Virus record (IMG/VR): IMGVR_UViG_3300031965_000019
Location: 2,490 to 66,489 of that record
DNA from: a virus
Direction: 5' to 3' (one strand)
Length of the DNA: 64,000 nucleotides
Positions 43,899-58,172 of this stretch are shown here, in pieces. The notes below the pieces were generated by a model. That model made no database searches. It was not told the DNA's origin and worked only from the letters and a program-made list of their open reading frames with translations. Both the position numbers and the translations under genes were made by a program. Numbering within the stretch: position 1 is the first letter of the stretch; the number at the start of each line of letters is the position of its first letter.

Positions 43899-44429
43899 TC
43901 AAGCCACGCCAATCCTATCCAGTAACTCCAGCCGATAGTTGGCGATAACGAAATCAAGTAAATCGTCCACTCGTTGGCCGTATGGATGCGTTCTGCATGT
44001 CCACAATTCTAGATTCTCAATACTATTGTCATGAGAATTGCCATTGCGATGATGCACAGATTCCGTGGCAAGTAATCTCCGCCGCAGATGTCGCTCCATC
44101 ACAGCACGGTGTTCTAAAACCCTTCTGCCATCGTGCATGACAACTCGTCGGTACTTTTTGTGCATTGGTTTTTGTTGGTGTCCAAGAGTTTGTGAACGTG
44201 CGCTGCACTTAGTCGAGCAAAACTTATCCCTTGATGCTTTTGGCTGGAACTCATTGCCGCACGATGAGCACGTAATTGGCACGAGCTTTCTTCGTAGCGC
44301 TGATGCGCATGCGTGGCTGCAAGCTCGCCGCGATTCCCATCGGTTTAACTGCCAACGAGGTTTTCGATGGAACTGCTTTCCGCAATATCGACAAATCTTC
44401 GGCTTAGTCGGCGTCATCTTCTTGCCCAT
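43899..44429 (-). CDS. HNH endonuclease with Zn-ribbon repeats
   Basis: CxxC repeats; EHRAVME…VHHRNGNSHDN.IENLEL. Confidence 0.88.
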   Translation of the reverse strand: MGKKMTPTKPKICRYCGKQFHRKPRWQLNRWESRRACSHACASALRRKLVPITCSSCGNEFQPKASRDKFCSTKCSARSQTLGHQQKPMHKKYRRVVMHDGRRVLEHRAVMERHLRRRLLATESVHHRNGNSHDNSIENLELWTCRTHPYGQRVDDLLDFVIANYRLELLDRIGVA

Positions 44430-45546
44430 ATCCCAGCCCTTTCAGTAAGAACGACAAACGATAGTGCTGCTTGCAACGGAACGCAACCATTTCCTGCGCA
44501 GCGAAGCTGATCGGATCGGCTCGCGTCCACCACCAAGGTGAGCCCATCAACCAGCACACGAACGCCGGGTTTAACCGCCGGCGCTCGGAAGTCGAAAGAG
44601 CCGTCGGCGACAACTCGATCCCATCCGTCGAAGTCACCGGGACCAGGGGCGAAAAGTTCGCCGCTTGATCCGGCAACAAGTCCTCGCGCTCTTCCGCTCC
44701 CACTTGGCAGCGGCTCGTGTGCATCTGGCCCGCTGGGGTCTGCCACTGGTCGACCTGGTTCGCCAACTGAATCCCGTGATCCACTTCGCGAGGCGTTTGC
44801 GTTCGCTCGTGGGAGTTCGGCGTTGCCCACTGCTGCGCCTGTCCCGCCAGCAACGGCTCGTCGATCCGCTCCCCGCCCCGGCTCACGCTGCCGCCGCCCA
44901 TCCCGTTCGGACTCGCCCATTGACTCGTCGCTCCAGTCAGCGTTGGCTGAGTTGTCCCATCCTTTTGATTCTGGTAATCGCCGACTTCGTGCGAACGGAT
45001 GGTAGGCCAAGATGAACACTCGCTCGCGTCGATGCGACGCGCCAACCGCCTCAGCAGTGATAAAGAGCGGGCTTTCGATTTCATAACCCAGTCGGCATAG
45101 TTCCTCTCCGAAAGATCGAAACCATCCTCCTCGAACCCAGGCAGGGACGTTTTCGAGGAACACCAGGGCGGGTCGCATTTCTCCCACGATGCGGAGGAAA
45201 TGGGGCAAGGGGCCGTCGCCGTCTCCGAAGCTGCGATGGTCGGCGTTGCCAAGCTGCCTGCCAGCGCAAGAGTATGGCTGACACGGCAGGCCCGCAATTG
45301 CGATGTCCACCATGCCGTGAAACGGTCTGCCGTCAAAGGTTGCGATATCGTCCCAGACAAGAGCATCATCCAACGACGATTCCGCCATCCTCGCCACGAT
45401 AACGGACGCTGCGTATGCGTCCCGCTCAATGTAAGCCAAACTTTTATATCGTACGCCGAGCAATTCGCATCCTGCACGAATGCCTTCCGACAACCAACCA
45501 ACGCCGGCACACACTTCGATTCCATTCCAGGTACATGAAGCCACAC
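44404..45546 (-). CDS. Alternate-frame methyltransferase partner chain (motif IX-like)
   Basis: Open 380 aa; W[PAQ]TP-type repeats and RLNPAFVCWLMG.PWWWT. Confidence 0.7.
   Translation of the reverse strand: MWLHVPGMESKCVPALVGCRKAFVQDANCSAYDIKVWLTLSGTHTQRPLSWRGWRNRRWMMLLSGTISQPLTADRFTAWWTSQLRACRVSHTLALAGSLATPTIAASETATAPCPISSASWEKCDPPWCSSKTSLPGFEEDGFDLSERNYADWVMKSKARSLSLLRRLARRIDASECSSWPTIRSHEVGDYQNQKDGTTQPTLTGATSQWASPNGMGGGSVSRGGERIDEPLLAGQAQQWATPNSHERTQTPREVDHGIQLANQVDQWQTPAGQMHTSRCQVGAEEREDLLPDQAANFSPLVPVTSTDGIELSPTALSTSERRRLNPAFVCWLMGSPWWWTRADPISFAAQEMVAFRCKQHYRLSFLLKGLGYGQEDDAD
44414..45544 (-). CDS. C5 cytosine methyltransferase, catalytic chain
   Basis: EVCAGVG (I), GLPCQPYS (IV), ENV (VI), HRRERVF (VIII), LRCAGNG (X). 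Confidence 0.9.
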   Translation of the reverse strand: MASCTWNGIEVCAGVGWLSEGIRAGCELLGVRYKSLAYIERDAYAASVIVARMAESSLDDALVWDDIATFDGRPFHGMVDIAIAGLPCQPYSCAGRQLGNADHRSFGDGDGPLPHFLRIVGEMRPALVFLENVPAWVRGGWFRSFGEELCRLGYEIESPLFITAEAVGASHRRERVFILAYHPFARSRRLPESKGWDNSANADWSDESMGESERDGRRQREPGRGADRRAVAGGTGAAVGNAELPRANANASRSGSRDSVGEPGRPVADPSGPDAHEPLPSGSGRARGLVAGSSGELFAPGPGDFDGWDRVVADGSFDFRAPAVKPGVRVLVDGLTLVVDASRSDQLRCAGNGCVPLQAALSFVVLTERAGIWARR

Positions 45547-45547
45547 G

Positions 45548-46066
45548 TCATGCCCTCCATGCTTTTGCTCGGATGGCGTAAGCGTATGATTCGCTCATAC
45601 CCAACCGCTTGCGGACACTAGACACATCCGACGCTACGCACAAACGAATCTGTGCAATCTGATCGTCTGTAAATTTTGCCGAACCATTCTTGCCGCCAAC
45701 AGCAGCGTTCCCGTTGACTGCCTTATCAGACTCATTGCCTGATTGAGTGCCCCATCTAAGATTTCCGACAGCGTTGTTCCTGGGATCATCATCGCTATGC
45801 AACACCTGCGGAAGCTTCCGTGGGTTTTCAATGAACGCCAACGCGACAAGTCGGTGAACAAAGCAATTCATCTTTCGTCCGTTCACGACTGGTGTTACGC
45901 GAAGATAGCCCCGCCGCCCATGCGGTGATGGCATTAACGCTTTGCCGGAAATCTGAGAAATAATTGAGCCGTCGCTTCCAGCTATGTAGCCAGCAACGCC
46001 AGGAATATCACGATATTCGATCATGCCGACTCCGAATGATGCTGTAGTGATGATGGGAGAAGCCAC
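45548..46066 (-). CDS. HNH (NUMOD4-like) endonuclease
   Basis: YRDIPG..GY…VHRLVALAF…VLHSDDDPRNNAVGNLRWGT. Confidence 0.88.
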   Translation of the reverse strand: MASPIITTASFGVGMIEYRDIPGVAGYIAGSDGSIISQISGKALMPSPHGRRGYLRVTPVVNGRKMNCFVHRLVALAFIENPRKLPQVLHSDDDPRNNAVGNLRWGTQSGNESDKAVNGNAAVGGKNGSAKFTDDQIAQIRLCVASDVSSVRKRLGMSESYAYAIRAKAWRA

Positions 46067-46067
46067 A

Positions 46068-46454
46068 TCAATCGACCCTCCCGTACTCCGCCAGCGAGGC
46101 GCCGAAAGAATCGTGAACGATGGGGACAGTCATCGGCTCTGTGTGGCCTTCCGGCAGGTATTCGAGACCGGCGCGTGATCGTCGATCGCTGTGCGACCAG
46201 CGGAGTTGAATGAGCCGACAGAGGTCCGCGATTTCCTCGGGCGACGGCGCGTAGCAGAGATCACGGTATTCGACGAGCCGCGTCTGCGTGGTGCCTTCGA
46301 GGCGGACCACGATCCGATAGGTCAACAGCCGGGTGATCCTGGCGAACTCTCCTGCCTCGACTGTCCGACAGCCGCGCACGAAGATTTGCACTCTGTCGCC
46401 GACGCGCAATTGGTGGTCCGTGAGGTCGATATCATCCGTGACGTTTCGGATCAT
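46068..46454 (-). CDS. Hypothetical protein (128 aa)
   Basis: AGGAG SD; SH3-like LRVGDRVQI start. Confidence 0.6.
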   Translation of the reverse strand: MIRNVTDDIDLTDHQLRVGDRVQIFVRGCRTVEAGEFARITRLLTYRIVVRLEGTTQTRLVEYRDLCYAPSPEEIADLCRLIQLRWSHSDRRSRAGLEYLPEGHTEPMTVPIVHDSFGASLAEYGRVD

Positions 46455-46550
46455 CCTTAACTACTCCTGAGATCAATGATTCCAGTGCCATCCGGCCAGC
46501 GCGGCCTTGCGCCAGTACAATTTGGGGCCGCGCCGACCGGTGGATTTTGA

Positions 46551-46955
46551 TTACAAGTTACTGACCTCTTCCGGATCCAATTCACCTAATCGTTCGGCCT
46601 GTGAACGGGAGATTTCGTCGCCAGGCGAGTTCTCTTCCAGCGGCTTAAACGAAATCGAGTTCGGGTGAATTTCGTAAACCCGGCCGGTAGCGACGTCCTC
46701 GACCATTGCCGTGTTGACACGCCTGATCGGCCCTCCCTTGCCACCGCCCACAGTCTTACTGCCGAAGAGGTGGAAGATGCCTGGCTTCCACTCGGCGTTC
46801 TCATTCAACCGATACCAACAAGCCCGTTGCTTGCTGGTGAGCCGATCGAACACGTCGACCATTTCGGTAAAACTTCTCATTGACTCCGTGAAATCGCTGA
46901 GTGCCGCAATCGATTCCTCATTCAACGCAAGTGTGTCTGACATGCTGTCCTCCAT
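46551..46955 (-). CDS. Hypothetical protein (134 aa)
   Basis: Typical composition, in operon. Confidence 0.55.
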   Translation of the reverse strand: MEDSMSDTLALNEESIAALSDFTESMRSFTEMVDVFDRLTSKQRACWYRLNENAEWKPGIFHLFGSKTVGGGKGGPIRRVNTAMVEDVATGRVYEIHPNSISFKPLEENSPGDEISRSQAERLGELDPEEVSNL

Positions 46956-47019
46956 TCTTATGGGTAAAACTGGGGCCGTGAGTTTTCCATTGCACTTCCG
47001 CCCCGCTGGTGGCTACCAA

Positions 47020-47364
47020 TCACTCGATTGGCTCTCCCGAGATCAGGTCCACTCCGCAACTCGGCCTCGCCCGCTCCACTGTCTCGCGTCGCGGACCATT
47101 CAATCGCTGTGGCTGGAGCGTGTGGTCGCGAACCACGGTGAGCGAGTCTTTGGCCATCGCGGCCGCAAAGCGAACTCGCCGCGATACGTCGAAGTCGGCC
47201 AACAATTCGTCACATAGGTCCAGGGCTCGCTCGAGGGCGGTCTCGCCGACGTTGTACAGTTGCGTCCGGCCAGGCAACAGGTTGTGGTGGAAATGGGGCA
47301 TAACAAACCTAGGTACCGATGTAATCTTGGCTGTCGAATAGTTCTTGCAGCATCCGTGCTTCAC
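47020..47364 (-). CDS. Hypothetical protein (114 aa)
   Basis: GGAAAGAGAAG before GTG start. Confidence 0.45.
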   Translation of the reverse strand: MKHGCCKNYSTAKITSVPRFVMPHFHHNLLPGRTQLYNVGETALERALDLCDELLADFDVSRRVRFAAAMAKDSLTVVRDHTLQPQRLNGPRRETVERARPSCGVDLISGEPIE

Positions 47365-47674
47365 TTCTCTTTCCTGTTGTCTGTTTCTTCGGCCAACTGT
47401 CGGGAATTCTCATATTCAGATTCGCTCTTCCATTGAGCTTCATGTAATCCACACAGTCGGAGAACATCTGCAATCCTTCACTGCGCAGAAATTCGAGCGG
47501 TAAGAACAACCAACCAGCGGGGCAATTGGTGATGTTCTTTTCTTCCGAAACCATCATGCCGAGATGGCCTCCCGTGTTGAGCATGCAGCCGCCCTGTTCT
47601 AGCGTATTTTTGAAATAAGACCGCCGCGAGATCGGGCAGGAGAATCCTTCGGGATATTTCATGGGTCGAAGCAT
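47309..47674 (-). CDS. Hypothetical protein
   Basis: GGAG SD before MLRPMKYPEG. Confidence 0.5.
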   Translation of the reverse strand: MLRPMKYPEGFSCPISRRSYFKNTLEQGGCMLNTGGHLGMMVSEEKNITNCPAGWLFLPLEFLRSEGLQMFSDCVDYMKLNGRANLNMRIPDSWPKKQTTGKRSEARMLQELFDSQDYIGT

Positions 47675-47676
47675 GG

Positions 47677-48525
47677 TCAAACTCCCGCCTCGGGGGCCCG
47701 CGGATCGTGCTGATTGCATTTCGCCCAAAACTTCCTCTCGTCCGCGCGCATCAACAGCAGGTGAGCAATGACGTCGTCAGTCGGGACCATGCTGCCGGCG
47801 TAAGTGCCACGATAGAATCCGATCGGGTGCATACACAGCGCGGCAAGGATTTTCGTATTGTCATGGCCAAGCATTGGGGCAATGGCGAGCGTCGGCCGGC
47901 ACTTGCGGAAGAAGTAGATGATCTTTGATCGCTTGCTGGTTTCCAGGAACGTGCCTGTCAGCAGGTAATAGCGGAAGGCACGGGAAGTGACCAAACCCTT
48001 GAGGCTGGCAAGTGCAGTGAACTCTGCCCTGACGCTCCAGGCTTGGGACGCACAGAGGGTATCTAGCACTATACTCGCCCGCTGCGACGACGTGCGATTC
48101 GGGATGGCCATGCACTTTACTTGACCATCCTCGCGATAGACGATGATCTGCCGCCCACGCTCGCGGTCGATCCACTGATTGACGATCTCGCAGTTATCGT
48201 GATCGACAGGATCGTCTTTTTTGGAAAGCGATGCGCCGTTGAGAGTGGCGTAGAGCGGGTGCCTCGGCTCGATTTCGAGACTCACGTCAACCATCGGCAT
48301 GGGGTAGCCGGCCCAATTTCCGCCCTCGCCGGCCAGTGTGACGATCCTCTGTCGAATGTTTTCCCAACCGTCGTCGAGGCCCTCCAGTAGCGTGTGCTGA
48401 GACTCCAAGTCGCCACACTTCTCGATGCGCCGAGCCAATCGCGCCAGCGACTTGAGTTCTCGCTCCCGCTTTTTGTTGGCCAGCTTTTTTTTGGTGGCAT
48501 TACCTGCCATTTCAACCTCCAGCAC
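47677..48525 (-). CDS. Hypothetical phage protein (~280 aa)
   Basis: Long ORF with conserved-looking LCMHPIGFY…D..IAHLL C-terminus. Confidence 0.65.
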   Translation of the reverse strand: MLEVEMAGNATKKKLANKKRERELKSLARLARRIEKCGDLESQHTLLEGLDDGWENIRQRIVTLAGEGGNWAGYPMPMVDVSLEIEPRHPLYATLNGASLSKKDDPVDHDNCEIVNQWIDRERGRQIIVYREDGQVKCMAIPNRTSSQRASIVLDTLCASQAWSVRAEFTALASLKGLVTSRAFRYYLLTGTFLETSKRSKIIYFFRKCRPTLAIAPMLGHDNTKILAALCMHPIGFYRGTYAGSMVPTDDVIAHLLLMRADERKFWAKCNQHDPRAPEAGV

Positions 48526-48907
48526 TTGGCGCGACGCCGGTCACGGACGTCGTCTTGGCGGATACTCTGCGACCATTGCCGCGTCCACGCTTTGATGGAG
48601 TAGGCGGCTTGGTGCCTGGCTTCGTTTCCTCATCCAAAGGAATCGGCGGCGCTGTCGGACCATCTGCAATCACGTACTCGCATGTCTTAGCGTCGAACCG
48701 TTTCACGCGGACGAATTCGCCGTCGACCTTGGCGAACAGCATGTAGCCCCGTTTGAGCATGTCTTTCACGACGCGCTCCGCCCGGGCCACTTCTAGCGGG
48801 TCTTTGCTGTCGAACGAAAAAACCATGTCGCCGGCTCCGCAGTTGAGGACCGACACGTTGGCGGGAATCGGTATCAGTGTCATGGGTTGTCCAGTGGTAA
48901 AACGCAA
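48512..48907 (-). CDS. Hypothetical protein (131 aa)
   Basis: LNCGAGD…APSAGG; upstream of the 280-aa gene. Confidence 0.6.
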   Translation of the reverse strand: MRFTTGQPMTLIPIPANVSVLNCGAGDMVFSFDSKDPLEVARAERVVKDMLKRGYMLFAKVDGEFVRVKRFDAKTCEYVIADGPTAPPIPLDEETKPGTKPPTPSKRGRGNGRRVSAKTTSVTGVAPSAGG

Positions 48908-48934
48908 AAGTAGGACTGTGTCATAAAGTCATAA

Positions 48935-49004
48935 AATGCTGTGCTGTGCATGGCAATGCGTTGCGACGCGCTGCTCAGCGATGCGTAGCACCGCCTCGCT
49001 TAGC
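48935..49004 (-). ncRNA. 5-nt periodic repeat unit F (14 pentamers), putative guide RNA
   Basis: GCTAA GCGAG GCGGT GCTAC GCATC GCTGA GCAGC GCGTC GCAAC GCATT GCCAT GCACA GCACA GCATT TT. Confidence 0.7.
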
Positions 49005-49011
49005 AGGATTA

Positions 49012-49731
49012 TCAAACAATCCACGCTGTAAACTTTCCAAACGGGCCGCCAGACGATTTCTTATTCCTGCCGCGCGGCTTGATGTAAGCCCTGAACGCGC
49101 CGAGACCAACACTCATTCCAGCGAATCGTAAAATGTCCTCGAAATAGTTTGAGATGACCCCCATGCAGTCCGTGTTACTCGTGTCGACGATCAACTTAAA
49201 ATTCGCCGCCCAAGTGTCGAAGCGAGGTCGGATTGCCACGATGGCCCCGCCCGTGTTGCCGTTGACCGCCCGCCGCATGTCAATCGCGTAGTCTTTTTCC
49301 GTGAGCGGTTTTCCCGTCTTGGGGTCGACCAACTTCGTGAGCGTCGTTTCATAGTCGAAGGTAAGACCGGCCTGGAGAATGGAAGCGGCGGAAGGGGCAT
49401 AGCGCCCCGACCCGACTTTCAGCTTCATAAGTTCGGCGGCGTCCATGATGCAGGAGAACAAGGCGACGTTTGGAAATGCACAGTGGCCGTCCCCGTCGAT
49501 GTAGGATTGTCGCCTGGCTACCGCCGCCGGCGCATTGTCTTGTTGCTTCTTGGTCCGTGTCGCGCCGCTTTCTTCCGGCTGCATATCGGCGGGATTCGCG
49601 CAAAGCAGCGGCGTGATTCCTTCCACATGGATTGTGAGCCGGTCCAGATTGAACAGCGTGGACTTCGCCGGCATGGCGGCTCCATTCTTTTCGATACGAT
49701 TGGTGGGCTTCGTTTTCGTTTTCGTGGCCAC
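49012..49731 (-). CDS. Stand-alone RAMP / Cas7-like protein (239 aa)
   Basis: IHVEGITPLL first strand, AFPNVALFSCIMDAA, IRPRFDTW, Gly-rich C-terminal AGMSVGLGAFR…GPFGKF; fold is inferred. Confidence 0.65.
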   Translation of the reverse strand: MATKTKTKPTNRIEKNGAAMPAKSTLFNLDRLTIHVEGITPLLCANPADMQPEESGATRTKKQQDNAPAAVARRQSYIDGDGHCAFPNVALFSCIMDAAELMKLKVGSGRYAPSAASILQAGLTFDYETTLTKLVDPKTGKPLTEKDYAIDMRRAVNGNTGGAIVAIRPRFDTWAANFKLIVDTSNTDCMGVISNYFEDILRFAGMSVGLGAFRAYIKPRGRNKKSSGGPFGKFTAWIV

Positions 49732-49753
49732 TTGGTTGTCTCCTATTAGTTAA

Positions 49754-49818
49754 AGGGCTGTGCTGTGCTTGGCCGAGCATCGCCATGCGAGGCCCGGTTT
49801 CGCGCAGCATTGCCTCGC
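49754..49818 (-). ncRNA. 5-nt periodic repeat unit E (13 pentamers)
   Basis: GCGAG GCAAT GCTGC GCGAA ACCGG GCCTC GCATG GCGAT GCTCG GCCAA GCACA GCACA GCCCT TT. Confidence 0.7.
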
Positions 49819-49842
49819 TCCTAAACGATGAATCGTAAAATC

Positions 49843-49892
49843 TGTGCTGTGGTTTGCGATGCGCCGCAATGCACCACACTGCTGGGCAAAGC
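49843..49892 (-). ncRNA. 5-nt periodic repeat unit D (10 pentamers)
   Basis: GCTTT GCCCA GCAGT GTGGT GCATT GCGGC GCATC GCAAA CCACA GCACA GATTTT. Confidence 0.65.
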
Positions 49893-49918
49893 AACGAAAC
49901 ATTTGTTCGATTAAATCC

Positions 49919-49978
49919 TGTGCTGTGCTGCGCTGCGCCACGCGTCGCGCTGCAAAGCGCTGCCACGCAGTGCCACGC
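49919..49978 (-). ncRNA. 5-nt periodic repeat unit C (12 pentamers)
   Basis: GCGTG GCACT GCGTG GCAGC GCTTT GCAGC GCGAC GCGTG GCGCA GCGCA GCACA GCACA GGATTT. Confidence 0.7.
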
Positions 49979-49989
49979 ACTGAAACATT

Positions 49990-50655
49990 TCACGCCACCA
50001 ACAGCACCTCCAAGGCGTGGTGTAATTTCTGGAGCCGGGCGAACAGCTTTTCGTCATCCGGCAGGGACTTCGATTCCAACAGCTTCAATAGCACGTTGAC
50101 GTGGTAGGAAGCGGTCTGCCCGCCGACGTGCTCATAAACATCCTCTTGTATCTTGGTGAGTTTCGTGCCGGCAAGGTGGGCCATCGGACGGCGGAGAACT
50201 ACGTCACCGCGGGAGCCTTTGGCGGAGCGACTGCCAACGATATCCGTCAGCTTCTCCCGCGTGACGTGAAGCGCCGTCGCCAATTTCTCCCGTGAGATGC
50301 GGAACTTCTTTCCGAGTGTCGCACAGCGGGCAATGTCCGCCGTCGTGAGCCTTCGGCCGTGGGTCGCGTTGCGGGCAATAGCGTCCAGCACCATTTCCGC
50401 TTCGTTCTTGAAATCGACCAGCATGACTTCCATCTCGGCATCATCGCCAGATACTTTGATATTGGCTCGACGCCGGTGGAAACCGTCAGTGAGCCGCAAG
50501 CTCTTGACATCGGCGACGCAGGGAGGCAGCGCCGCCCCAGCCCGAATTGATTCCGCCAGATCGTAGACGTGGCCATCGAACACGCAGTTGCGCGGGTAGA
50601 TGGAAAAATCTTCGATCAGTTCCGAGGCTTTCAGGACTTTAGTTTTGTGAGTCAT
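49990..50655 (-). CDS. ParB/Srx-like N-terminal domain protein (221 aa)
   Basis: SIYPR…LAESIRAG..LPP…LTDGFHRRRA; GAAAGGA SD before ATG 50655. Confidence 0.8.
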   Translation of the reverse strand: MTHKTKVLKASELIEDFSIYPRNCVFDGHVYDLAESIRAGAALPPCVADVKSLRLTDGFHRRRANIKVSGDDAEMEVMLVDFKNEAEMVLDAIARNATHGRRLTTADIARCATLGKKFRISREKLATALHVTREKLTDIVGSRSAKGSRGDVVLRRPMAHLAGTKLTKIQEDVYEHVGGQTASYHVNVLLKLLESKSLPDDEKLFARLQKLHHALEVLLVA

Positions 50656-50682
50656 GCGAATCCTTTCTGGTTGACAAAAATC

Positions 50683-50742
50683 TGTGCTTTGCTTTGCGCG
50701 GCGATGCATAGCCTGGCCCAGGCTCGCGGCGCCGTGCATTAC
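50683..50742 (-). ncRNA. 5-nt periodic repeat unit B (12 pentamers)
   Basis: GTAAT GCACG GCGCC GCGAG CCTGG GCCAG GCTAT GCATC GCCGC GCAAA GCAAA GCACA GATTTTT. Confidence 0.65.
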
Positions 50743-50775
50743 GGGGTCGCTACTTGATGAATTGGTTCATAAAAC

Positions 50776-50850
50776 TGTGCTGTGCTTTGCGTAACAACGC
50801 TTCGCCGCGCCCGACTAAGCTGGGCCCCGCGTCGCCGAGCCGCGCCTCGC
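50776..50850 (-). ncRNA. 5-nt periodic repeat unit A (15 pentamers)
   Basis: GCGAG GCGCG GCTCG GCGAC GCGGG GCCCA GCTTA GTCGG GCGCG GCGAA GCGTT GTTAC GCAAA GCACA GCACA GTTTT. Confidence 0.7.
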
Positions 50851-50858
50851 GGCGACAA

Positions 50859-52277
50859 CTAATAAATCTCCGCTCTCAGTTCACCGTCCGCCGCTTCCGC
50901 GCTGAGGATGATGATTTGCTTTTCATGCGCGAACTCAATAATCTCTTGCCGATTGGTTGGATCGAGGCTCTCGAAGTCCCCTTGGTCGACCACAACCACG
51001 CCGCCAGGGCCGACGCGCGAAGCCACCAGCCGGACCCCCAGCTTTACACGCTCGCCATGCGACAGCTCGCCGATCGGCTCGGCGCCGCGATCTGTGTTTA
51101 CACGCAGCAGGCCCTTCTCGACGAACAGACCGATGTCCAGTCCGGCCACGGCGTCGGAGAGTACGCTGTCGATACCCAGCGCGGCGGAGCGGAAGAGGTC
51201 TGCGATTTCGTCCGCGGCCTTCCCCTGCTGGAGTTCCTTGTCGGCCAGCGCCTTCGCCTTGTCGTACTCGCGGGCTTTCACGCCAGTTTCGACGGCGTCG
51301 CGGGCTGTATCGACACGCTGCGATGCCGCCAGAACTTCGCTGATCGTGATGGGCTGCGGTAGTTCAGTGGCGAGGATCTTCTCGAAACCATCGCGCATGG
51401 CGACAAGCCGTTTGTCGGCAAGCACAGCCGCCTCGGCCAATTTGTACTCGGTTGCCGCCTCGGACTGGATTCGCTGGGCTTCCGCCAGCGCCGCTTCCGC
51501 CCTATTCAGTGACTCGACTGCCGCAACCATACGGGAGTCCACTACTGCCGAATCTGCGGCTGGCAACTTCGCCAGCCTCGCCTCGGCTTCCTCGCGTTTG
51601 ACGGCTTGGTCCTGTTGGTCACGGTCCCGCTGTTCAATCGAAGATTGTTCGCGGATCGCCGCCTCCAACTGCGCCTGCAGCTTGGCCGAGTCCCGCTCTT
51701 GCGTGGGCCCAAACTCGGTGGCGTTGGCCATGAGGCCGGTCGACTTTTGATGGTGGGCCACGGCGCGGGCCGAATTGTCTCTAGCCCCTTGCTCAAGTTT
51801 GCGTTTCACGCGGCCAGCGTACTCGACCAGATCCTCGCAGGGCTCCACGGCCAGCGACTCGAAAACCGGCGTGGGAATCAGCCGCGGCGTGAACAGCGCC
51901 GCATCGCCCGTGACGCCCCGGATCGCCAGCAGACTCTTGATCCGTTTCGCGTCGGCCGAGGCCGGATCGTCGATGCCAGGGTCGATGAACGCGGCCAGGT
52001 CCAGCTTGCCCTCGATGCTCTGGACATCCAGGTGTCCGCTCTTCGTGATCCTAGGCCCGATGTTGATTCTCGCCCCCCAGCCCTCGGCCGTCCCCTTATC
52101 GGCCCCGTCATGGACGGTCGGACGCTCGTCTCCGCCCAATAGGCGCTTGACCGTGTCGAGCCCGTGAGACTTGCCAGTACCATTCGCTCCGCGGAGCAAA
52201 ATGAGCCCGCCCCCCTCGGGAGTCTGAAACTCGATCGACTTGACCGCTCCGGAATTTTCAATGGTTACAGTCGCCAT
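50859..52277 (-). CDS. SMC/Rad50-like ABC ATPase (472 aa)
   Basis: Walker A GANGTGKS, long coiled coil, LSHGE signature, VVVDQ Walker B. Confidence 0.85.
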   Translation of the reverse strand: MATVTIENSGAVKSIEFQTPEGGGLILLRGANGTGKSHGLDTVKRLLGGDERPTVHDGADKGTAEGWGARINIGPRITKSGHLDVQSIEGKLDLAAFIDPGIDDPASADAKRIKSLLAIRGVTGDAALFTPRLIPTPVFESLAVEPCEDLVEYAGRVKRKLEQGARDNSARAVAHHQKSTGLMANATEFGPTQERDSAKLQAQLEAAIREQSSIEQRDRDQQDQAVKREEAEARLAKLPAADSAVVDSRMVAAVESLNRAEAALAEAQRIQSEAATEYKLAEAAVLADKRLVAMRDGFEKILATELPQPITISEVLAASQRVDTARDAVETGVKAREYDKAKALADKELQQGKAADEIADLFRSAALGIDSVLSDAVAGLDIGLFVEKGLLRVNTDRGAEPIGELSHGERVKLGVRLVASRVGPGGVVVVDQGDFESLDPTNRQEIIEFAHEKQIIILSAEAADGELRAEIY

Positions 52278-52330
52278 GATTCACTCGCTTTCTAGAACTG
52301 ATTGGTTTGTCACCGTGTCGGCCAACGCCG

Positions 52331-53416
52331 CTACTTCGTTTTCCCCCACTCGGCCAACTTGACCGCGTGCTGGGCTATGGCGAGCCGGTCCGGCGCCACC
52401 GCTTCGTCCGCCTGCATCTCGCCGAGCACGACTTTCTTGTCGGCGACTGTGGGCGCGGCGGCAATCTCAGCTTCGTAGTCGCGAGTGATGCTAGGCTCTG
52501 CCTCCGCTTCGGGAGACGGCCACACCACCCCCAGAGCATCCAGCCGCTTGGCGGCCGCGTCCTGGATCATGTCGACCAGTTCGGTCGGCAGTTTCGTGCC
52601 CGGCGAGCACCACATACTCAGCAGCGCTTCAATGCCCGCCTCGTCGGCCATGACCATCTTGTCTAGGACTCCTTGCAGCCAATCTGGCAACGGCTCTCCG
52701 GTGCTTTCCGGTTTCTCGCCGTTGGCATCGTTCGTCTCCGGCTTGTTGAGGATCTTGTCGGCGAGCGTGTTGAGCGTCGTTGGGGCCACTGGTTCCGCCG
52801 GTGCGGAAGGCGCTGACATACGCTCCAGATCGTCGTCGGTCAGTACGCCCATAATCACTTCCGGGCAGTAGCGCCGAGCCCACTTGATCGCGCCGCTATA
52901 GCACAGCTTTTGGTCCGGGTCTTTCTTCCACATATCGTTCTCGGTCTTGGCCTGTTTGACCGACAATTCGATCGTGAGCACCTTTTCGGAGCCCTGGAAA
53001 GTTGCCGAGACGATGACCGTGCGCTCGTCGCCTTCGCCTTTGAAGTCGTAAGCCAGCCGTTCTTTCAGGCCAGCGCGGGAATTGACAACGGCCGCGACAA
53101 GTTTCCCCTGATAGCCGAGTTTCCCGTGAACGACATAGGACTCGTCGGCAACAGCAAAAGGATCAAACCCCCAGCGGTAGGCTTGGTTCACGACACGCAA
53201 ACAGTTGCCGACAGTTTCGGACTGATTGCTACCTTTCAGGTGTTTCGGGCAGAGCGAACTGCCGCCGATGGCTATTGCGACACGCTGCATTTGGTTGAAG
53301 GTTTCAGTCTGCAACAACGCGCTTTGAGCGCCGGCCGGTTGCATGGCCAACGGCGAGGGAGTGCTGGGGACAAGAGCGGAACTTACGGTCGGTTCTGGGG
53401 CGGTTACGGTACTCAT
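52331..53416 (-). CDS. recT: RecT-family single-strand annealing protein
   Basis: WGFDPFAVA…GKLGYQGKLV…WKKDPDQKL.Y…WARRYCPEVIMGV. Confidence 0.85.
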   Translation of the reverse strand: MSTVTAPEPTVSSALVPSTPSPLAMQPAGAQSALLQTETFNQMQRVAIAIGGSSLCPKHLKGSNQSETVGNCLRVVNQAYRWGFDPFAVADESYVVHGKLGYQGKLVAAVVNSRAGLKERLAYDFKGEGDERTVIVSATFQGSEKVLTIELSVKQAKTENDMWKKDPDQKLCYSGAIKWARRYCPEVIMGVLTDDDLERMSAPSAPAEPVAPTTLNTLADKILNKPETNDANGEKPESTGEPLPDWLQGVLDKMVMADEAGIEALLSMWCSPGTKLPTELVDMIQDAAAKRLDALGVVWPSPEAEAEPSITRDYEAEIAAAPTVADKKVVLGEMQADEAVAPDRLAIAQHAVKLAEWGKTK

Positions 53417-54618
53417 GCGAAGGTCTCCACGGGTAAGGTCGCGTCGCTGCCACGCTTGTTATTGCACGCGGCGCAGGCGAGCGCGATGTTGTTGGGATCG
53501 TTCGTCCCGCCCACGCTGAGCGGAATAACGTGTTCGAGCGTGGCCGTCTTGGCCGTCAATGTTGCTCCGCACCACTTGCAATGCGGGTCTTGCTCCAAGA
53601 GTTGCCGCTTGATCCAGCGCGGCAATTGCTTGCGTTCGGCAACGCAATAGTCCTCAGGTTCCGGCAGGGCCACGCCCTTGGGCGCCTTGCAGGTCCGCAG
53701 GGTGCGGAAAGATGTCGCCGCGACTTCATACGCCGTGCGGTCGGTGGTCTTGAGAGAGAGCCAGCGGGCGTCAGGCGTTACGCCATAAGTGCTGTCACCG
53801 ATCCATGCCTTGAACTGATTCTTGATCCGTTCGATACGGCGGTCGCAAGCCTTGGCGACGCGTTGGGCCCGTTCGTACATGGAAAGAATTGCATCGGCTT
53901 CGGCCGGCAATGCCGCTACCGTGCCGTCATCGTCTGGATGAAGTCTCGCGAGGGCCTTGGCTGTCGCCGCGGATTCGTCCATCGGCGGCTCGATCTGGTC
54001 CACGACGTAACCCCAAAACTCTTCCAGCGCCACCAACAGCGCGTCGATGAAGTGCTGGTTACGCTCGAAATAGAATTGCTCCAGGCTTTGGCTGCCGAAG
54101 AATACGGCGACCACACCCCAGTCCCAGCCGGTCACCAGTAACTCTTGCATCAGTTGCACTTGCACGGCCACCGGCGGCTCGTCGCGCCAATCGCCGCGGC
54201 CAAACTCGCTCCAAGTCTTGATACTGAATGAGCCAGGCCGATCACCAAACCGTTCCGAATGAAACACCACGGCATCCGGAGTGCAGTGAATGTGGCTGTG
54301 GTCTGGATGGCGCGCCAGCGTGTGCTCGGGCCAGCTCTCGATGCGACCGCCAAACTTGCTGGTGTAAAGCCGCTGGACCCATCCCTCCATGCCGAGCCCG
54401 ATCTGCTGCCGTTCGGTGGACACCGACAGTAGCGGTGGACGCACCTTGTCGGCCCAGACCTTCACGGGTGAACTGTAATCGCCGGCGAGGCCGAGGATGG
54501 CCGGGCTGTCGCTGCCACCGATACTCTTGGCCCGCTCTTCCAGCCAGTGCTGCCGGTCACGGCACTGGACCAACTCGGCCGTGGTGAGCTTGGCGATGGT
54601 GGCGAGGTCGTTTTTCAT
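53413..54618 (-). CDS. YqaJ / lambda-exonuclease fused to C-terminal HNH domain
   Basis: IGGSD…HCTPDA…SIKT…Q.QL; CKWC…LEHVIPLSVGGTND..NIALAC..CN. Confidence 0.88.
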   Translation of the reverse strand: MKNDLATIAKLTTAELVQCRDRQHWLEERAKSIGGSDSPAILGLAGDYSSPVKVWADKVRPPLLSVSTERQQIGLGMEGWVQRLYTSKFGGRIESWPEHTLARHPDHSHIHCTPDAVVFHSERFGDRPGSFSIKTWSEFGRGDWRDEPPVAVQVQLMQELLVTGWDWGVVAVFFGSQSLEQFYFERNQHFIDALLVALEEFWGYVVDQIEPPMDESAATAKALARLHPDDDGTVAALPAEADAILSMYERAQRVAKACDRRIERIKNQFKAWIGDSTYGVTPDARWLSLKTTDRTAYEVAATSFRTLRTCKAPKGVALPEPEDYCVAERKQLPRWIKRQLLEQDPHCKWCGATLTAKTATLEHVIPLSVGGTNDPNNIALACAACNNKRGSDATLPVETFA

Positions 54619-54918
54619 ATCGTTCTCAACATCTTCAACTCGACTGACGCACCGTTTCCCGAACGACTTCCTGCCGCAGTTGCCATGCGATATGGGGATC
54701 GCTAGCGCCCGATCGCGACGCTGGAAGGCATGTCCGGCCGTGCTCCCGCACGTCCCCGTCTGTCCGTGAGTGTTCGCGCCATGCTGGGCATGGTCTCGGT
54801 CGTCGCAGTGAGTCAGTCAAGTTGCCCATATCGTTCTCAAACTCCGCCGCCGGCAGGTGCTAACGACTTGCATCCCGGCCCGGTGAACGCGGACAGGTGC
54901 CTGCCGGCAGCGGGGCGT

Positions 54919-55089
54919 TCACTCCTGAAACCGTTTTTTCAAATGTTCGTAGAGTTCTCTCAATTCACTGATAACAAGTGCGTCGCAGATCACCTCAATC
55001 TGTTTGTAAGACTCCAAGCACTGCAAGGCATCGATCGCAATCTTCACAAGTTGATCTGCGTTCACGTTGTTAATCGTTATGTGGTGCAT
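54919..55089 (-). CDS. Small hypothetical protein (56 aa; not in track)
   Basis: GGAGAGGTG SD; MHHITINNVNADQLVKIAIDAL…. Confidence 0.5.
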   Translation of the reverse strand: MHHITINNVNADQLVKIAIDALQCLESYKQIEVICDALVISELRELYEHLKKRFQE

Positions 55090-55092
55090 CGC

Positions 55093-55308
55093 TCACCTCT
55101 CCAGCACTCTCAGCGCCAATACGGAAATCGCCACCAGCCCGGCCACGGCGAGGCAAATCAGCGCAGCCCAGACGGAGTCCAAAAACTCCGCGGGGCTCGG
55201 CTCTGGCTCGCTGTCCAGCAGATCGTCGTCCGGCTCGGGAGTCGGCGTGGACGTGGTTTCCCATGGACCGGGGTAATCGCGATAGCTGCGTGAGTAGGGG
55301 TCGCTCAT
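55093..55308 (-). CDS. Small membrane protein (71 aa)
   Basis: Acidic N-terminus, C-terminal TM; GGAGG SD. Confidence 0.6.
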   Translation of the reverse strand: MSDPYSRSYRDYPGPWETTSTPTPEPDDDLLDSEPEPSPAEFLDSVWAALICLAVAGLVAISVLALRVLER

Positions 55309-55727
55309 GGCGTAGCCTCCACTCCAGCCTTTTCAAACTGCGACCGCACAAAAATGTCGAGTTCGTTGAGTTCACTGGCTAATTGGGCCACTATGATGGC
55401 CAATCTTGGCAGCGGCTCCATGTCTGGACGCTCTCTGCCGAGAGTGCACCTCGTCAGTTCGTACCGCAACTGATGCGATTTGTGTCGAAGCAACCCTGTC
55501 CTGTCGGCAGAGGGGATGTTCACCAGCGAACTCCTGCCGTCCGCGCTAGTTCCGTCCTGCAGGAACGTCTGGATCGCCTCGACGTCGCCCTTATACTTGA
55601 CCAATGCAATGATTGGGCCGACATGTGGTGAGCCACCCTTGTCAGTGCAAATTATTCGGGCGCTTCGGCCGTCGGTCGTTACAACTGGTTTTGTTGGATC
55701 GAACTTTCGCTGCGCAGCAACGGACAT
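55305..55727 (-). CDS. Hypothetical phage protein
   Basis: KPVVTTDGRSARIICTD…PIIALV pattern common in phage proteins. Confidence 0.6.
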   Translation of the reverse strand: MSVAAQRKFDPTKPVVTTDGRSARIICTDKGGSPHVGPIIALVKYKGDVEAIQTFLQDGTSADGRSSLVNIPSADRTGLLRHKSHQLRYELTRCTLGRERPDMEPLPRLAIIVAQLASELNELDIFVRSQFEKAGVEATP

Positions 55728-55874
55728 GGGTAAACCCCGTATTATGTGCCTCAGGCTGCCGGCCAGATGCGTCCGAACGCTTTGGCGAGAAGCCGTAATC
55801 GTTACGAGTGCCGATCCTGGCCGCGACACCAGGAATACGCTTGATCGGCAGGTACTTTTAACCCAACTGGCGTT

Positions 55875-55902
55875 ATATTATCACGCAGCGGGACAATTGC
55901 AA
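55875..55902 (-). promoter_or_regulatory. Leftward early promoter candidate
   Basis: TTGCAA-16 nt-TAATAT with TG extension. Confidence 0.5.
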
Positions 55903-55951
55903 CACCAAAACACCCATATCGTGAGAATTTTTGAGAAAAAAACAAGCCGGC

Positions 55952-56203
55952 TCATTCATTTGCCGGGCGGCCCCTGGAATTACGCTCTTTTTTGTAGCGG
56001 GCGATCTCGGCCTTGTGGATATACCAGTCTGCGCCAGGGCTCATTTGGAAGCCTTCTAGGGCAGGGCTCTTTTTTTCCAGGAAATTATTGCAGTAGCGGC
56101 GCACGGAGTCGGCAGTCAGCCCAAGGGCCTCTGCCGCCTCGGCACAGGTGAGATAGTCCTTAGTTTCAATCGTGGGCATACTCATGGCCCTTGAAATTAT
56201 CAC
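55952..56203 (-). CDS. Excisionase-like HTH protein
   Basis: YLTCAEAAEALGLTADSVRRYC. Confidence 0.8.
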   Translation of the reverse strand: MIISRAMSMPTIETKDYLTCAEAAEALGLTADSVRRYCNNFLEKKSPALEGFQMSPGADWYIHKAEIARYKKERNSRGRPANE

Positions 56204-57143: not shown

Positions 57144-57965
57144 ATGATTGCCGTCGCCGATTCTTTTGTCGCCCATGCCGAGCGATACATGCTGGCTAAT
57201 CCTTGCTGTCGAAAGCACCGGGAAAACATACGGGGTCGCATCCGTCGCTTCGTGGCGTGGTTCCCGGGCTCCCCGAAATCGCTGGCGCCCGAAGACCTGA
57301 ATGGCTTTCTGGCTTCCCTGGAGCGCGCCGGCCTCAGCGCTCACACTGTCAACGGCTACCGCGCGACAATCATGGCTGTCTGGCGGTTCGTGCTGGGAGA
57401 AAGAATTCGTTGGAAGATAAGGCGGGTACGTCCGCCGCAGAGAGAAGTGAAAGCCTGGAGCGTCGGCCAAGTGCGACAACTGCTGAGCGTTGCCGTGACG
57501 TTGCGTGGCCGGCTGCCCAACGGCGTGCAGCGGCGGCTGTTTTTCCTAACGGCGATCCACGCCGGGTTTTCCACGGGACAGAGATACGGGGATCTGGCCA
57601 GACTGCCAGTGGCGGCGATTCGAGCCGATAGGACGGCGACCTTCGTTCAATCCAAGACGGGCCGTCGCGTCACTGTTCGTTTCAGCGATAAGGCGGTGCG
57701 CTGCATTCGAGCTCACGGGCAGGCGACGGTAATTCCCAATCCGCACACGCAGCAGTGGTTTTGCGTGGCGTTCGGCGATTTGGTGGAACGAGCCGGGATC
57801 AGGCGCGGGAGCTTCAGGTGGCTCCGCCGCAGCGCGGGCTCGTATGTCGAGCGGGCGACTGGGCGAGGGCCGGAACTGCTGGGGAACACCAGAGCCGTGT
57901 TCGAGGCGAATTATCAGGCGGAGTCAATCACGAGGCGAGCACCGCCGGAGCCGCCGCGGCTGTAG
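57144..57965 (+). CDS. int: Tyrosine recombinase / integrase (273 aa, divergent)
   Basis: SAM-like N-terminus, TGQRYGDL, QSKTG, FRWLRR, LLGN, Tyr in ANY. Confidence 0.8.
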   Translation: MIAVADSFVAHAERYMLANPCCRKHRENIRGRIRRFVAWFPGSPKSLAPEDLNGFLASLERAGLSAHTVNGYRATIMAVWRFVLGERIRWKIRRVRPPQREVKAWSVGQVRQLLSVAVTLRGRLPNGVQRRLFFLTAIHAGFSTGQRYGDLARLPVAAIRADRTATFVQSKTGRRVTVRFSDKAVRCIRAHGQATVIPNPHTQQWFCVAFGDLVERAGIRRGSFRWLRRSAGSYVERATGRGPELLGNTRAVFEANYQAESITRRAPPEPPRL

Positions 57966-58172
57966 CTACCACGGGTCGTCTACTTCACGGTAGTGAATTA
58001 TTGCCGAGCCGTTCGGCGTCCGCCCCAGGAGGATCGCGTCGAATTCCGAACCGCGCACGGACACCACGAATCCACCGCTCGCGGACCGCTGGAGCACGCT
58101 CCAGGGATCGTCGTGGAACGCTAGTCGCGCGTGAGCGATAACGTCGGTTTCAGTGAGAGCTATTGCGTTCAT
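57966..58172 (-). CDS. Hypothetical protein (68 aa)
   Basis: ATGA overlap with PEP-CTERM gene. Confidence 0.45.
   Translation of the reverse strand: MNAIALTETDVIAHARLAFHDDPWSVLQRSASGGFVVSVRGSEFDAILLGRTPNGSAIIHYREVDDPW

What the first reader, a model, noticed from the sequence alone, without database searches (positions are those of the whole stretch)
48935..50742. Five further distinct putative guides (B-F) with unknown targets
Seen, variable dinucleotides 5'-3' on the minus strand. B: AA AC GC GA TG CA TA AT CG AA AA AC. C: GT AC GT AG TT AG GA GT GC GC AC AC. D: TT CC AG GG AT GG AT AA AC AC. E: GA AA TG GA CG CT AT GA TC CA AC AC CC. F: TA GA GG TA AT TG AG GT AA AT CA AC AC AT. Inference: a multiplexed repertoire analogous to a spacer set. 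I found no convincing target inside the window by eye.
Basis: partly seen in the sequence, partly recalled or inferred. Interest (0 to 1): 0.7.

Follow-up and report, generated by a model that had tools for sequence, protein, structure and literature searches.

The report
Five phage VIPR guide RNAs, targets unknown
These five runs of five-base repeats are very probably guide-RNA genes of a phage-borne VIPR system, a CRISPR-like gene silencer first described in 2026, but none of the sequence collections I could search held a convincing target for any of them.

Summary
Observation confirmed. The five dinucleotide strings reproduce exactly. Units B-F, with unit A next door, are six arrays of 8-14 in-phase GC-N-N-N pentamers on the minus strand. 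They occur nowhere else in this 67.8-kb soil phage, and shuffled sequence never exceeds 8.

They lie around a Cas7-like gene (49012-49731) and a ParB/KorB-like gene (49990-50655). The Cas7-like protein aligns with the Vipr protein of phage SUSP1 (hhalign probability 94%). Twenty-six homologues always sit beside the same partner gene and 3-11 similar arrays, each ending in GCAAA-sCACA-GCACA-G plus a T-rich stretch. This is a VIPR system (bioRxiv 2026.04.26.720920) with the non-canonical unit xGC/NN. The scan has met VIPR before on other DNA.

The published one-base-skip rule works here. Unit A matches a rival phage's ATPase gene at 23 of 24 read bases, and only with skip 1.

B-F gave nothing above shuffled controls in 245 kb of relatives or in exact scans of large collections. 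One weak lead: C matches the conserved VTVRFS strand of the phage's own integrase family, in frame, at 16/20.

New detail: the fifth base of each unit behaves like a codon's third base. B-E therefore read as peptides (NTAEWQYIR, VTVSFSDVA, FPSGIGI, ENCERLMDS).

The parts
50682..50742 (-). vrRNA B. Guide units lie at 50698-50742 (read bases AA AC GC GA TG CA TA AT CG). The tail units GCAAA GCAAA GCACA G lie at 50682-50697 and are followed by ATTTTTGTCAACC. It sits just upstream of the ParB-like gene.
49918..49978 (-). vrRNA C. Guide units lie at 49934-49978 (GT AC GT AG TT AG GA GT GC). The tail is (GCGCA) GCACA GCACA G plus GATTTAATCGAAC. It is the first of three back-to-back units between the two genes.
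49842..49892 (-). vrRNA D. It is the shortest guide, at 49858-49892 (TT CC AG GG AT GG AT). The tail is GCAAA CCACA GCACA G plus ATTTTACGATTCA.
49758..49818 (-). vrRNA E. The guide lies at 49774-49818 (GA AA TG GA CG CT AT GA TC). The tail is GCCAA GCACA GCACA G. It runs straight into the ribosome-binding site and GTG start of the Cas7-like gene.
48939..49004 (-). vrRNA F. The guide lies at 48955-49004 (TA GA GG TA AT TG AG GT AA AT). The tail is GCCAT GCACA GCACA G plus CATTTTATGAC. It is the only guide with stop triplets (TAA, TGA) in the sense reading. It marks the downstream edge of the cassette.
49012..49731 (-). vipr, a 239-aa Cas7/Csm3-like RAMP protein (P0002) and the presumed effector that polymerises on the guides.
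   Evidence: AlphaFold2 pLDDT 75. The top 50 Foldseek PDB hits are all Csm3/Cas7. hhalign to SUSP1 Vipr gives probability 94%, E 1.4e-7. There are 26 homologues at 54-74% identity.
49990..50655 (-). vap-like accessory gene, a 221-aa ParB/Noc/KorB-fold protein (P0003) with a GFHRRR arginine patch.
   Evidence: It has no Pfam hit. The fold search top hits are pNOB8 ParB, Noc, ParB-CDP and KorB. A 61-75% identical gene lies next to vipr in every related locus.
50776..50850 (-). vrRNA A. It lies outside the finding and served as the positive control. Its 12 guide units spell the last 12 codons of a rival's ATPase gene.

Best explanation
B-F are five guide-RNA genes (vrRNAs) of a phage-borne VIPR system.

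Inferred from the published mechanism: each is transcribed from the minus strand, and one Vipr protomer (P0002) binds each 5-nt unit. The constant G and C are clamped and flipped out, and the two following bases are presented for pairing. The filament then binds double-stranded DNA whose sequence repeats those base pairs with one base skipped between them, and silences transcription there, probably helped by the ParB/KorB-like partner. The most likely targets are genes of competing phages, satellites or prophages in the same host.

Shown here: the repeat architecture; homology of the protein to SUSP1 Vipr; conservation of the gene pair, arrays and tail across 11 related loci; and validity of the skip-1 rule for unit A and for one guide of a sister locus.

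Not shown: transcription, RNA ends, binding, or any target of B-F.
For: 1. Six arrays of 8-14 in-phase GCNNN units are confined to the 1.9-kb cassette.
2. P0002 has a Cas7/Csm3 fold. It aligns over its full length with SUSP1 Vipr (probability 94%). The residues that hold G2 and Y3 in the SUSP1 structure are kept: R138, W178, R179 correspond to R168, F213, R214. The two residues that hold G1 (H17, D177) are Ala here, which matches the loss of the first constant base in these units (structure paper read).
3. All related loci fetched pair vipr with the same 221-aa gene and carry 3-11 arrays. Their variable parts differ, but they share the tail GCAAA-sCACA-GCACA-G plus a T-rich stretch.
4. Unit A matches the end of the ATPase gene in phage G001, which lacks the cassette, at 23/24 read bases. 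Skip 1 gives P=0.00 against shuffles, while skips 0, 2 and 3 give P of 0.30-0.88. A guide in locus L009 matches the neighbouring capsid gene at 20/22, in frame.
5. Guide triplets of the clade are depleted of stop codons in the sense frame: 4 observed against 10.2 expected, P 0.013; 32 of 35 guides are stop-free, P 0.005. Base composition at the three free positions resembles codon positions 1, 2 and 3 of the phage's genes.
6. The discovery paper lists YNNNG-type repeats as an alternative vrRNA form. A later preprint reports 21 clusters with non-canonical units.
Against: No target for any of B-F passed shuffled controls under any skip size. No RNA data exist for this phage. The arrays show no conserved tail hairpin or pseudoknot like the one described for the SUSP1 clade (folding z-scores -2.3 to +0.1). 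No sigma-70-like promoter was predicted in the cassette. D has only 7 guide units, fewer than the 9-16 repeats given for whole vrRNAs, although a six-unit footprint is reported to work in SUSP1.
Confidence: 0.85

Rival explanations
1. B-F are vrRNA-shaped, and Vipr may load onto them, but they do not currently silence anything. They could be orphaned guides whose targets have died out or escaped. They could be decoys that soak up a rival's Vipr. They could also be raw material for new guides.
For: No target was found in any collection. Most guides of sister loci also lack targets in the pooled data. Satellite-borne decoy vrRNAs are documented in the SUSP1 system (abstract). F contains stop triplets, and D is very short.
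Against: The GC scaffold and tail of all five are as intact as in unit A, which argues for continued selection. Relatives of this phage are so scarce in the collections that a blank result is expected even for working guides.
Confidence: 0.1
2. The arrays act mainly in cis. Vipr or the ParB-like protein would coat them on the leader RNA or the DNA to set expression of the downstream genes, as TRAP does on its 5-nt-spaced triplets. The variable bases would then carry no address.
For: B, E and F lie directly upstream of genes, and E ends 15 nt before the ribosome-binding site of vipr. The 5-nt spacing resembles TRAP sites; this was my first hypothesis and rests on my own knowledge.
Against: Unit A and the L009 guide carry clear addresses. 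C and D have no gene behind them. The variable bases look like codons rather than noise. The protein is a Vipr homologue.
Confidence: 0.04
3. The period-5 GC pattern is a compositional accident or a plain repeat with no function.
For: None beyond the high GC content of the region.
Against: Shuffled sequence never reaches the observed run lengths. The pattern recurs beside every homologue of P0002 in unrelated phage backgrounds.
Confidence: 0.01

Closest known systems
VIPR type II of Escherichia phage SUSP1 and the Pseudomonas fulva prophage (Vipr + vap1 + vrRNAs; bioRxiv 10.64898/2026.04.26.720920, .720927, 2026.10.15.759431)
   Same: A lone Cas7-like protein homologous to SUSP1 Vipr, with a small DNA-binding partner gene. 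Several 5-nt-periodic guide genes sit in the flanking intergenic DNA, followed by a constant 3' tail. The setting is a phage. Targets are read with one base skipped, shown here for unit A, and codon-aligned targets lie in competitors' genes.
   Different: The constant part is xGC (only G2 and C3 fixed) instead of GGY. The tail is made of pentamer-like units plus a T-rich stretch, with no detectable hairpin or pseudoknot. The partner has a ParB/KorB fold, and that name does not occur in the main text of the two papers I searched for it. The guides are scattered before, between and after the two genes. The fifth base of each unit tracks the target's skipped base.
Non-canonical VIPR arrays: YNNNG, NNNGG and NNNNG repeats in the discovery paper's methods; GAC/NN, CAC/NN, WGT/NN and TGH/NN clusters in bioRxiv 10.64898/2026.10.21.760802
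   Same: Five-nt period, about 10 units, a nearby Vipr-like fold, and a constant part that departs from GGY. The unit here, written C-N-N-x-G, fits the YNNNG class.
   Different: The texts I could read name neither an NGC/NN unit nor this protein clade, and the figures are not held. None of them states that the degenerate position carries target information.
Class 1 CRISPR crRNA-Cas7 filaments (type III Csm3, type I Cas7)
   Same: RAMP fold. One protomer binds each fixed stretch of guide, a thumb breaks the guide-target duplex periodically, and a multiplexed guide set is directed against mobile elements.
   Different: There are no repeat-spacer array, no Cas6/Cas5/Cas10/Cas1-2 genes and no 6-nt period. 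The window holds only three small tandem repeats. Each guide is its own short gene.

Membership tests
VIPR system | Vipr protein: a minimal RAMP (RRM core, glycine-rich loop, thumb) related to the published Vipr family | tested here: met
   The AF2 model's top 50 PDB hits are all Csm3/Cas7 (E from 2e-4). The profile of 25 family members against SUSP1 Vipr (KT454805 28474-29061) gives probability 94%, E 1.4e-7, over 173 columns. The RP.F..W and G.G..R motifs and a C-terminal FG+F motif (FGKF here, FGRF in SUSP1) are shared.
VIPR system | vrRNA body: about 9-16 tandem 5-nt units with a conserved trinucleotide (GGY or a related consensus) alternating with hypervariable NN | tested here: met
   There are 10-13 units per array here (7-10 guide units plus about 3 tail units). 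G is 92% and C is 96% conserved, and the other positions are near even. Only two of the three 'constant' bases are fixed, which corresponds to the YNNNG variant named in the discovery paper.
VIPR system | Invariable 3' tail after the repeat tract, structured (pseudoknot) in the SUSP1 clade | tested here: inconclusive
   A conserved tail exists in all 44 tail matches (overlapping registers included) in the window and six related loci: GCAAA-sCACA-GCACA-G plus wTTTw..AATCA. No stable or conserved fold was detected (z -2.3 to +0.1).
VIPR system | Minimal locus: vipr plus one accessory vap gene with a DNA-related function, long flanking intergenic regions, no CRISPR array, mostly viral | tested here: met
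   A ParB/KorB-fold gene lies adjacent in all loci. The contig is a 67.8-kb virus record. No CRISPR-like array is present in the window.
VIPR system | Targets follow the one-base-skip rule at 80% or more of read bases, usually with the skipped base on the codon wobble position | tested here: inconclusive
   The rule is met for the locus through unit A (23/24, skip 1 only, wobble-aligned) and for sister locus L009 (20/22). It is not met for B-F: the best is C at 16/20 on the phage's own integrase (P about 0.06), and the others are at shuffle level.
VIPR system | vrRNAs are expressed as discrete RNAs of about 100 nt that co-purify with Vipr | not testable with these tools
   Only two DNA runs hold the stretch, and no RNA holder is listed.
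TRAP-like ring-protein RNA site (considered early) | A TRAP (TrpBP) family protein encoded nearby, and triplets of fixed sequence spaced by 2-3 nt in a regulated leader | tested here: not met
   The four cassette-region proteins have no Pfam TrpBP hit. The adjacent protein is a RAMP. Two arrays have no downstream gene.

The most novel reading that the evidence does not exclude
In this Vipr clade the guide unit may be 'GC + codon'. All three free bases would mirror one codon of the target's sense strand, so the filament would read DNA contiguously: three bases paired and two flipped per unit, with no skipped target base.

The family has replaced both residues that clamp the first constant G in SUSP1 Vipr (H17 and D177) with alanine, which would free that base to pair.

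If this is right, B-E are direct nucleotide images of the peptides NTAEWQYIR, VTVSFSDVA, FPSGIGI and ENCERLMDS in still unsampled competitors. It would also mean that a competitor can escape without changing its protein through any synonymous change.

A weaker alternative is that the fifth base is only a historical imprint of how guides are copied from targets. That would itself bear on the unknown origin of new vrRNAs.
Probability: 0.3. Interest if true: 0.65.

Novelty: new member of a known kind. Interest (0 to 1): 0.35.

Why it matters
VIPR was described only in 2026, and the experimental work is on Escherichia and Pseudomonas elements. This locus extends it to a soil phage clade with three differences: a reduced constant motif (xGC), a ParB/KorB-like partner, and guide genes scattered around the operon.

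For the finding as given, the practical outcome is a clean catalogue of five guides with defined guide and tail boundaries. It also records that their targets are not in current public collections.

Two by-products can be tested. First, the fifth base of each unit behaves like a codon's third base, which either changes the reading rule in this clade or records how guides are made. Second, in the clearest pairs the guides differ from their near-targets at Leu, Arg and Ser codon-family switches. Under a wobble-blind code these are the only changes that escape a guide without altering the protein.

Tried and rejected
1. TRAP-like or iteron-like protein-binding sites were my first hypothesis. I dropped it once the adjacent protein proved to be a RAMP and unit A had a target.
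2. Rfam: no family matched in 44000-56000.
3. Own genome, skips 0-3, full-length and tail-trimmed guides: nothing for B-F. The best was B at 18/24 (P 0.04, full length), which fell to shuffle level after tail trimming.
4. The B hit in the protease-scaffold ORF (QTEEFQFIRT against NTAEWQYIR, in frame) is no better than shuffles at either DNA or BLOSUM level.
5. Whole relative G001 (49 kb): only A is significant. C scores 16/20 at an unrelated site and 15/20 at the integrase.
6. Exact NNx patterns in IMG/VR contigs gave no hits for B (9 units), C (9 and 10), D (9, extended 5'), and F (units 1-10 and 2-11).
7. E (9 units) gave one exact IMG/VR hit, in L016. It lies antisense in a tape-measure gene, with the skipped base on codon position 1 and the tenth unit mismatched. 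The contig has 65% GC, shows no similarity to this phage, and gives no hit for the other guides. I treat it as chance.
8. C (9 units) in 596 Gb of prokaryote genomes gave 6 hits, none in an integrase.
9. The contiguous 36-mer of unit A in JGI metagenomes gave 0 hits.
10. Integrase-family loci from metagenomes (7) and ATPase-family contigs (3) gave no B-F match.
11. The Vipr profile in genome contigs found no relative, so no host could be assigned.
12. tblastn of P0002 against 50,697 phage genomes gave no match.
13. Sequencing runs: no RNA holder is listed. Contigs of the source soil run include a low-depth integrase allele with 24 differences over about 146 bases (about 84% identical) that spans the C site, but its letters there were not displayed.
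14. A D skip-3 hit in L021 (13/14) has no GC scaffold and is chance.
15. Peptide-level search of large protein collections with the 7-9 residue readings was not possible with the tools' length limits.
Full report
**What is there.** Read on the minus strand, the stretch 48935-50742 holds five blocks in which GC recurs every five bases. Each block ends in GCACAGCACAG followed by a T-rich stretch. A sixth block, unit A, lies at 50776-50850. In the complete 67,819-base contig, runs of 8 to 14 in-phase GC occur only at these six places. Shuffled versions of the contig give on average 1.1 runs of six or more, and never more than eight.

**What surrounds it.** All six blocks are on the coding strand of a small cassette. 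It follows the stop codon of an SMC-like ATPase gene (50859-52277). The order is unit A, unit B, a 221-aa gene (49990-50655), units C, D and E back to back, a 239-aa gene (49012-49731), then unit F. Neither protein has a Pfam match.

- The 239-aa protein, modelled with 24 homologues (pLDDT 75), finds only Csm3/Cas7 subunits of type III, type VII and Cas7-11 CRISPR effectors among its best 50 PDB matches.
- The 221-aa protein has the fold of ParB, Noc and KorB, including a GFHRRR arginine patch.
- The nearest relative of the phage, a 49-kb IMG/VR contig (G001), has the ATPase gene but not the cassette. There the ATPase stop is followed after about 190 bases by the sequence that in this window follows unit F.

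**It is a known kind.** A note from this scan on unit A (e1-5325043) pointed me to VIPR, which I then checked in the papers. The discovery preprint (10.64898/2026.04.26.720920) describes mainly viral systems. Each has a minimal RAMP protein (Vipr), an accessory vap gene and vrRNAs made of 9-16 five-base units, in which a constant GGY alternates with a hypervariable NN, followed by a constant 3' tail. The NN pairs specify double-stranded DNA targets in which every third base is skipped. Natural targets are accepted at 80% or more of read bases. The methods also name alternative NNNGG, YNNNG and NNNNG repeats. A later preprint reports 21 clusters with other non-canonical units.

I tested membership directly.

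- The profile of the 239-aa family aligns over the whole length of the SUSP1 Vipr protein (KT454805, 28474-29061) with hhalign probability 94% and E 1.4e-7.
- In the cryo-EM description (10.64898/2026.04.26.720927), G2 of the unit is held by R138 and W178 and Y3 by R179. In the alignment these correspond to R168, F213 and R214 here, and R168 and R214 are invariant in the family.
- G1 is held by H17 and D177, and these correspond to Ala45 and the invariant Ala212.
- This fits the RNA. Written in the published register, the unit here is x-G-C-N-N, with G at 92%, C at 96% and the first position free.

**Family context.** The large protein collection holds 26 homologues at 54-74% identity. I fetched eleven loci for six of them, seven of them distinct contigs. 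These lie in quite different phage neighbourhoods: early regions, beside integrases, and between the head protease and the capsid gene. All of them encode the same ParB-like partner next to vipr, at 61-75% identity. All of them carry 3 to 11 GCNNN arrays. The variable bases differ from locus to locus, while the last three units and what follows are conserved: GCAAA, C/G-CACA, GCACA, G, then T-rich and often AATCA. I therefore take the last three units as tail. That leaves guides of 9 (B), 9-10 (C), 7 (D), 9-10 (E) and 10-11 (F) units. Unlike the SUSP1 tail, this one shows no stable or conserved fold.

**Does the reading rule hold here?** Yes, for the controls.

- The twelve guide units of unit A match the last twelve codons of the ATPase gene of G001 at 23 of 24 read bases. 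In a pooled 245 kb of this phage, G001 and 13 other fetched contigs, only skip 1 stands out (P 0.00 against shuffled guides). Skips 0, 2 and 3 give P of 0.30-0.88.
- The phage's own ATPase gene matches at only 18/24.
- A guide in sister locus L009 matches the capsid gene next to it at 20 of 22 read bases, in frame.

**Targets of B-F.** I found none that I can defend. The evidence is as follows.

- No skip size gives a hit above shuffled guides in the pooled 245 kb, in the own genome with full or trimmed guides, or in the whole of G001.
- Exact one-skip patterns found nothing in the IMG/VR contigs for B, C, D or F.
- E gave a single IMG/VR hit, in an unrelated 65% GC contig. It lies antisense in a tape-measure gene with the skipped base on codon position 1, and no other guide matches that contig. 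With 18 specified bases, a chance hit among the four patterns of that length scanned would not be unusual.
- C in 596 Gb of prokaryote genomes gave six hits, none in a recombinase.
- Relatives of this phage are very scarce in the collections. The ATPase found one in IMG/VR, the integrase profile found seven loci in the JGI metagenomes, and the Vipr profile found none in the species-representative genomes.
- Most guides of the sister loci also find nothing.

A blank result here therefore says little about whether the guides work.

**One weak lead.** Guide C matches the phage's own tyrosine-integrase gene at 57669-57697 (plus strand) at 16 of 20 read bases. The match is in frame and on the sense strand (P about 0.06 in the genome, the same level as unit A against its own gene, which gives P 0.08-0.09). 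The footprint covers V176-V185 (VTVRFSDKAV) and matches every residue that is invariant in this integrase family: V178, F180, S181 and A184. Two points count against it.

- G001 has an equally good match at an unrelated site.
- No known allele reaches 80% over a longer stretch.

Silencing of a competitor's recombinase at a conserved strand is what the SUSP1 system does to its satellite (10.64898/2026.10.15.759431), so the lead is biologically reasonable. I put it at about one in three.

**A feature of this clade.** The fifth base of each unit follows the two read bases, so it lines up with the target's skipped base. It is not random.

- In the two validated pairs it equals the target's third codon base in 14 of 23 units, against about 28% expected (P about 0.001).
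- The guide triplets of unit A translate to EASDGPLRAEVY, exactly the C-terminus of the G001 protein. Those of the L009 guide translate to YEYSGPQGGYL, exactly the capsid peptide.
- Across 35 distinct guides of the clade, stop triplets in this reading number 4 against 10.2 expected when each position's composition is kept (P 0.013). Thirty-two guides are stop-free (P 0.005).
- After TA the fifth base is a pyrimidine in 9 of 11 units (P 0.009).
- Base composition at the three free positions resembles codon positions 1, 2 and 3 of the phage's own genes.

Two readings are possible. Either the fifth base also pairs with the target, giving a contiguous three-of-five code, which the loss of the G1-clamping residues would permit. 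Or it is an imprint of how guides arise from target sequence. Another note of this scan (e1-5346858) reported something similar for a GA-NNN system. I did not check that locus.

On this reading B, C, D and E spell NTAEWQYIR, VTVSFSDVA, FPSGIGI and ENCERLMDS. F carries TAA and TGA, so it is not an in-frame sense copy. It may address a non-coding site or the other strand.

**Mismatches between guides and near-targets.** The only mismatched unit between unit A and G001 is TTA against CTG (both Leu). The only one between the L009 guide and its capsid gene is TCC against AGC (both Ser). One of the five between unit A and the phage's own ATPase gene is CGG against AGA (both Arg), and another is TTA against CTG (both Leu). 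Under a code that ignores the wobble base, switches between the two codon families of Leu, Arg and Ser are the only escapes that leave the protein unchanged. The sample is small.

**Verdict.** The interpretation as a guide repertoire is supported by architecture, by homology and by a working control in the same cassette. It is not supported by any target of B-F. The system is a new member of the published VIPR kind, in the variant with a two-base scaffold, and the scan has already met VIPR on other DNA several times. Interest is moderate to low for the finding as stated. The codon-like fifth base is the part worth following up.

Noticed in passing
window 49990-50655 (-): The accessory gene next to vipr has a ParB/Noc/KorB fold with a GFHRRR arginine patch like the CTP-binding motif of ParB clamps. 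This raises the idea that a sliding clamp spreads silencing from the Vipr-bound site. ParB is not mentioned in the main text of the discovery and competition papers, the two I searched for the word.
   Followed up: partly
window 50863-50897 (-); L001:11408-11442; L009:7554-7586: In the two best-matched pairs the only mismatched unit is a synonymous switch between codon families: Leu TTA/CTG (unit A against G001) and Ser TCC/AGC (the L009 guide). Unit A against the phage's own ATPase gene adds an Arg switch (CGG/AGA) and a Leu switch among its five mismatched units. Under a wobble-blind code these are the only escapes that leave the protein unchanged.
   Followed up: partly
L009:6709-6780 and L009:7554-7588: In a sister phage the VIPR pair sits inside the head module. 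The guide downstream of vipr spells YEYSGPQGGYL of the adjacent major capsid gene (20/22 read bases) and is followed by an intrinsic terminator.
   Followed up: yes
window 57144-57965 (+): This is a tyrosine integrase, 95% identical to that of G001. Contigs of the source soil run include a second low-depth allele with 24 differences over about 146 bases (about 84% identical) covering 57585-57730, so a related phage co-occurs in the same sample.
   Followed up: partly
window 58169-59095 (-): A 308-aa protein with a dockerin-like DGDGDVD stretch and a C-terminal PEP-CTERM-like sorting signal (VPEPATLLLL...RRK). It looks like a host-derived surface protein carried by the phage.
   Followed up: no
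window 48880-48935 (-) versus L001:11590-11680: The sequence CATTTTATGAC..GACACAGTCCTAC that follows unit F is also present in the cassette-free relative, where the small downstream gene is cut to 9 codons. The cassette edge therefore coincides with a motif that resembles the vrRNA tail's T-rich part.
   Followed up: partly
L004:4355-5476: An IS605 OrfB/TnpB (Cas12f-like) gene lies 2.5 kb from the VIPR pair in the closest sister locus. CsrA homologues occur in two related phage contigs (L002:11877-12038, L031:14917-15153).
   Followed up: no
L016:10527-10552 (-): This is the only exact 9-unit match of guide E in IMG/VR. It falls on the LDESIALL motif of a tape-measure gene in an unrelated high-GC phage contig, read from the antisense strand with the skipped base on codon position 1. 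It is probably chance.
   Followed up: yes
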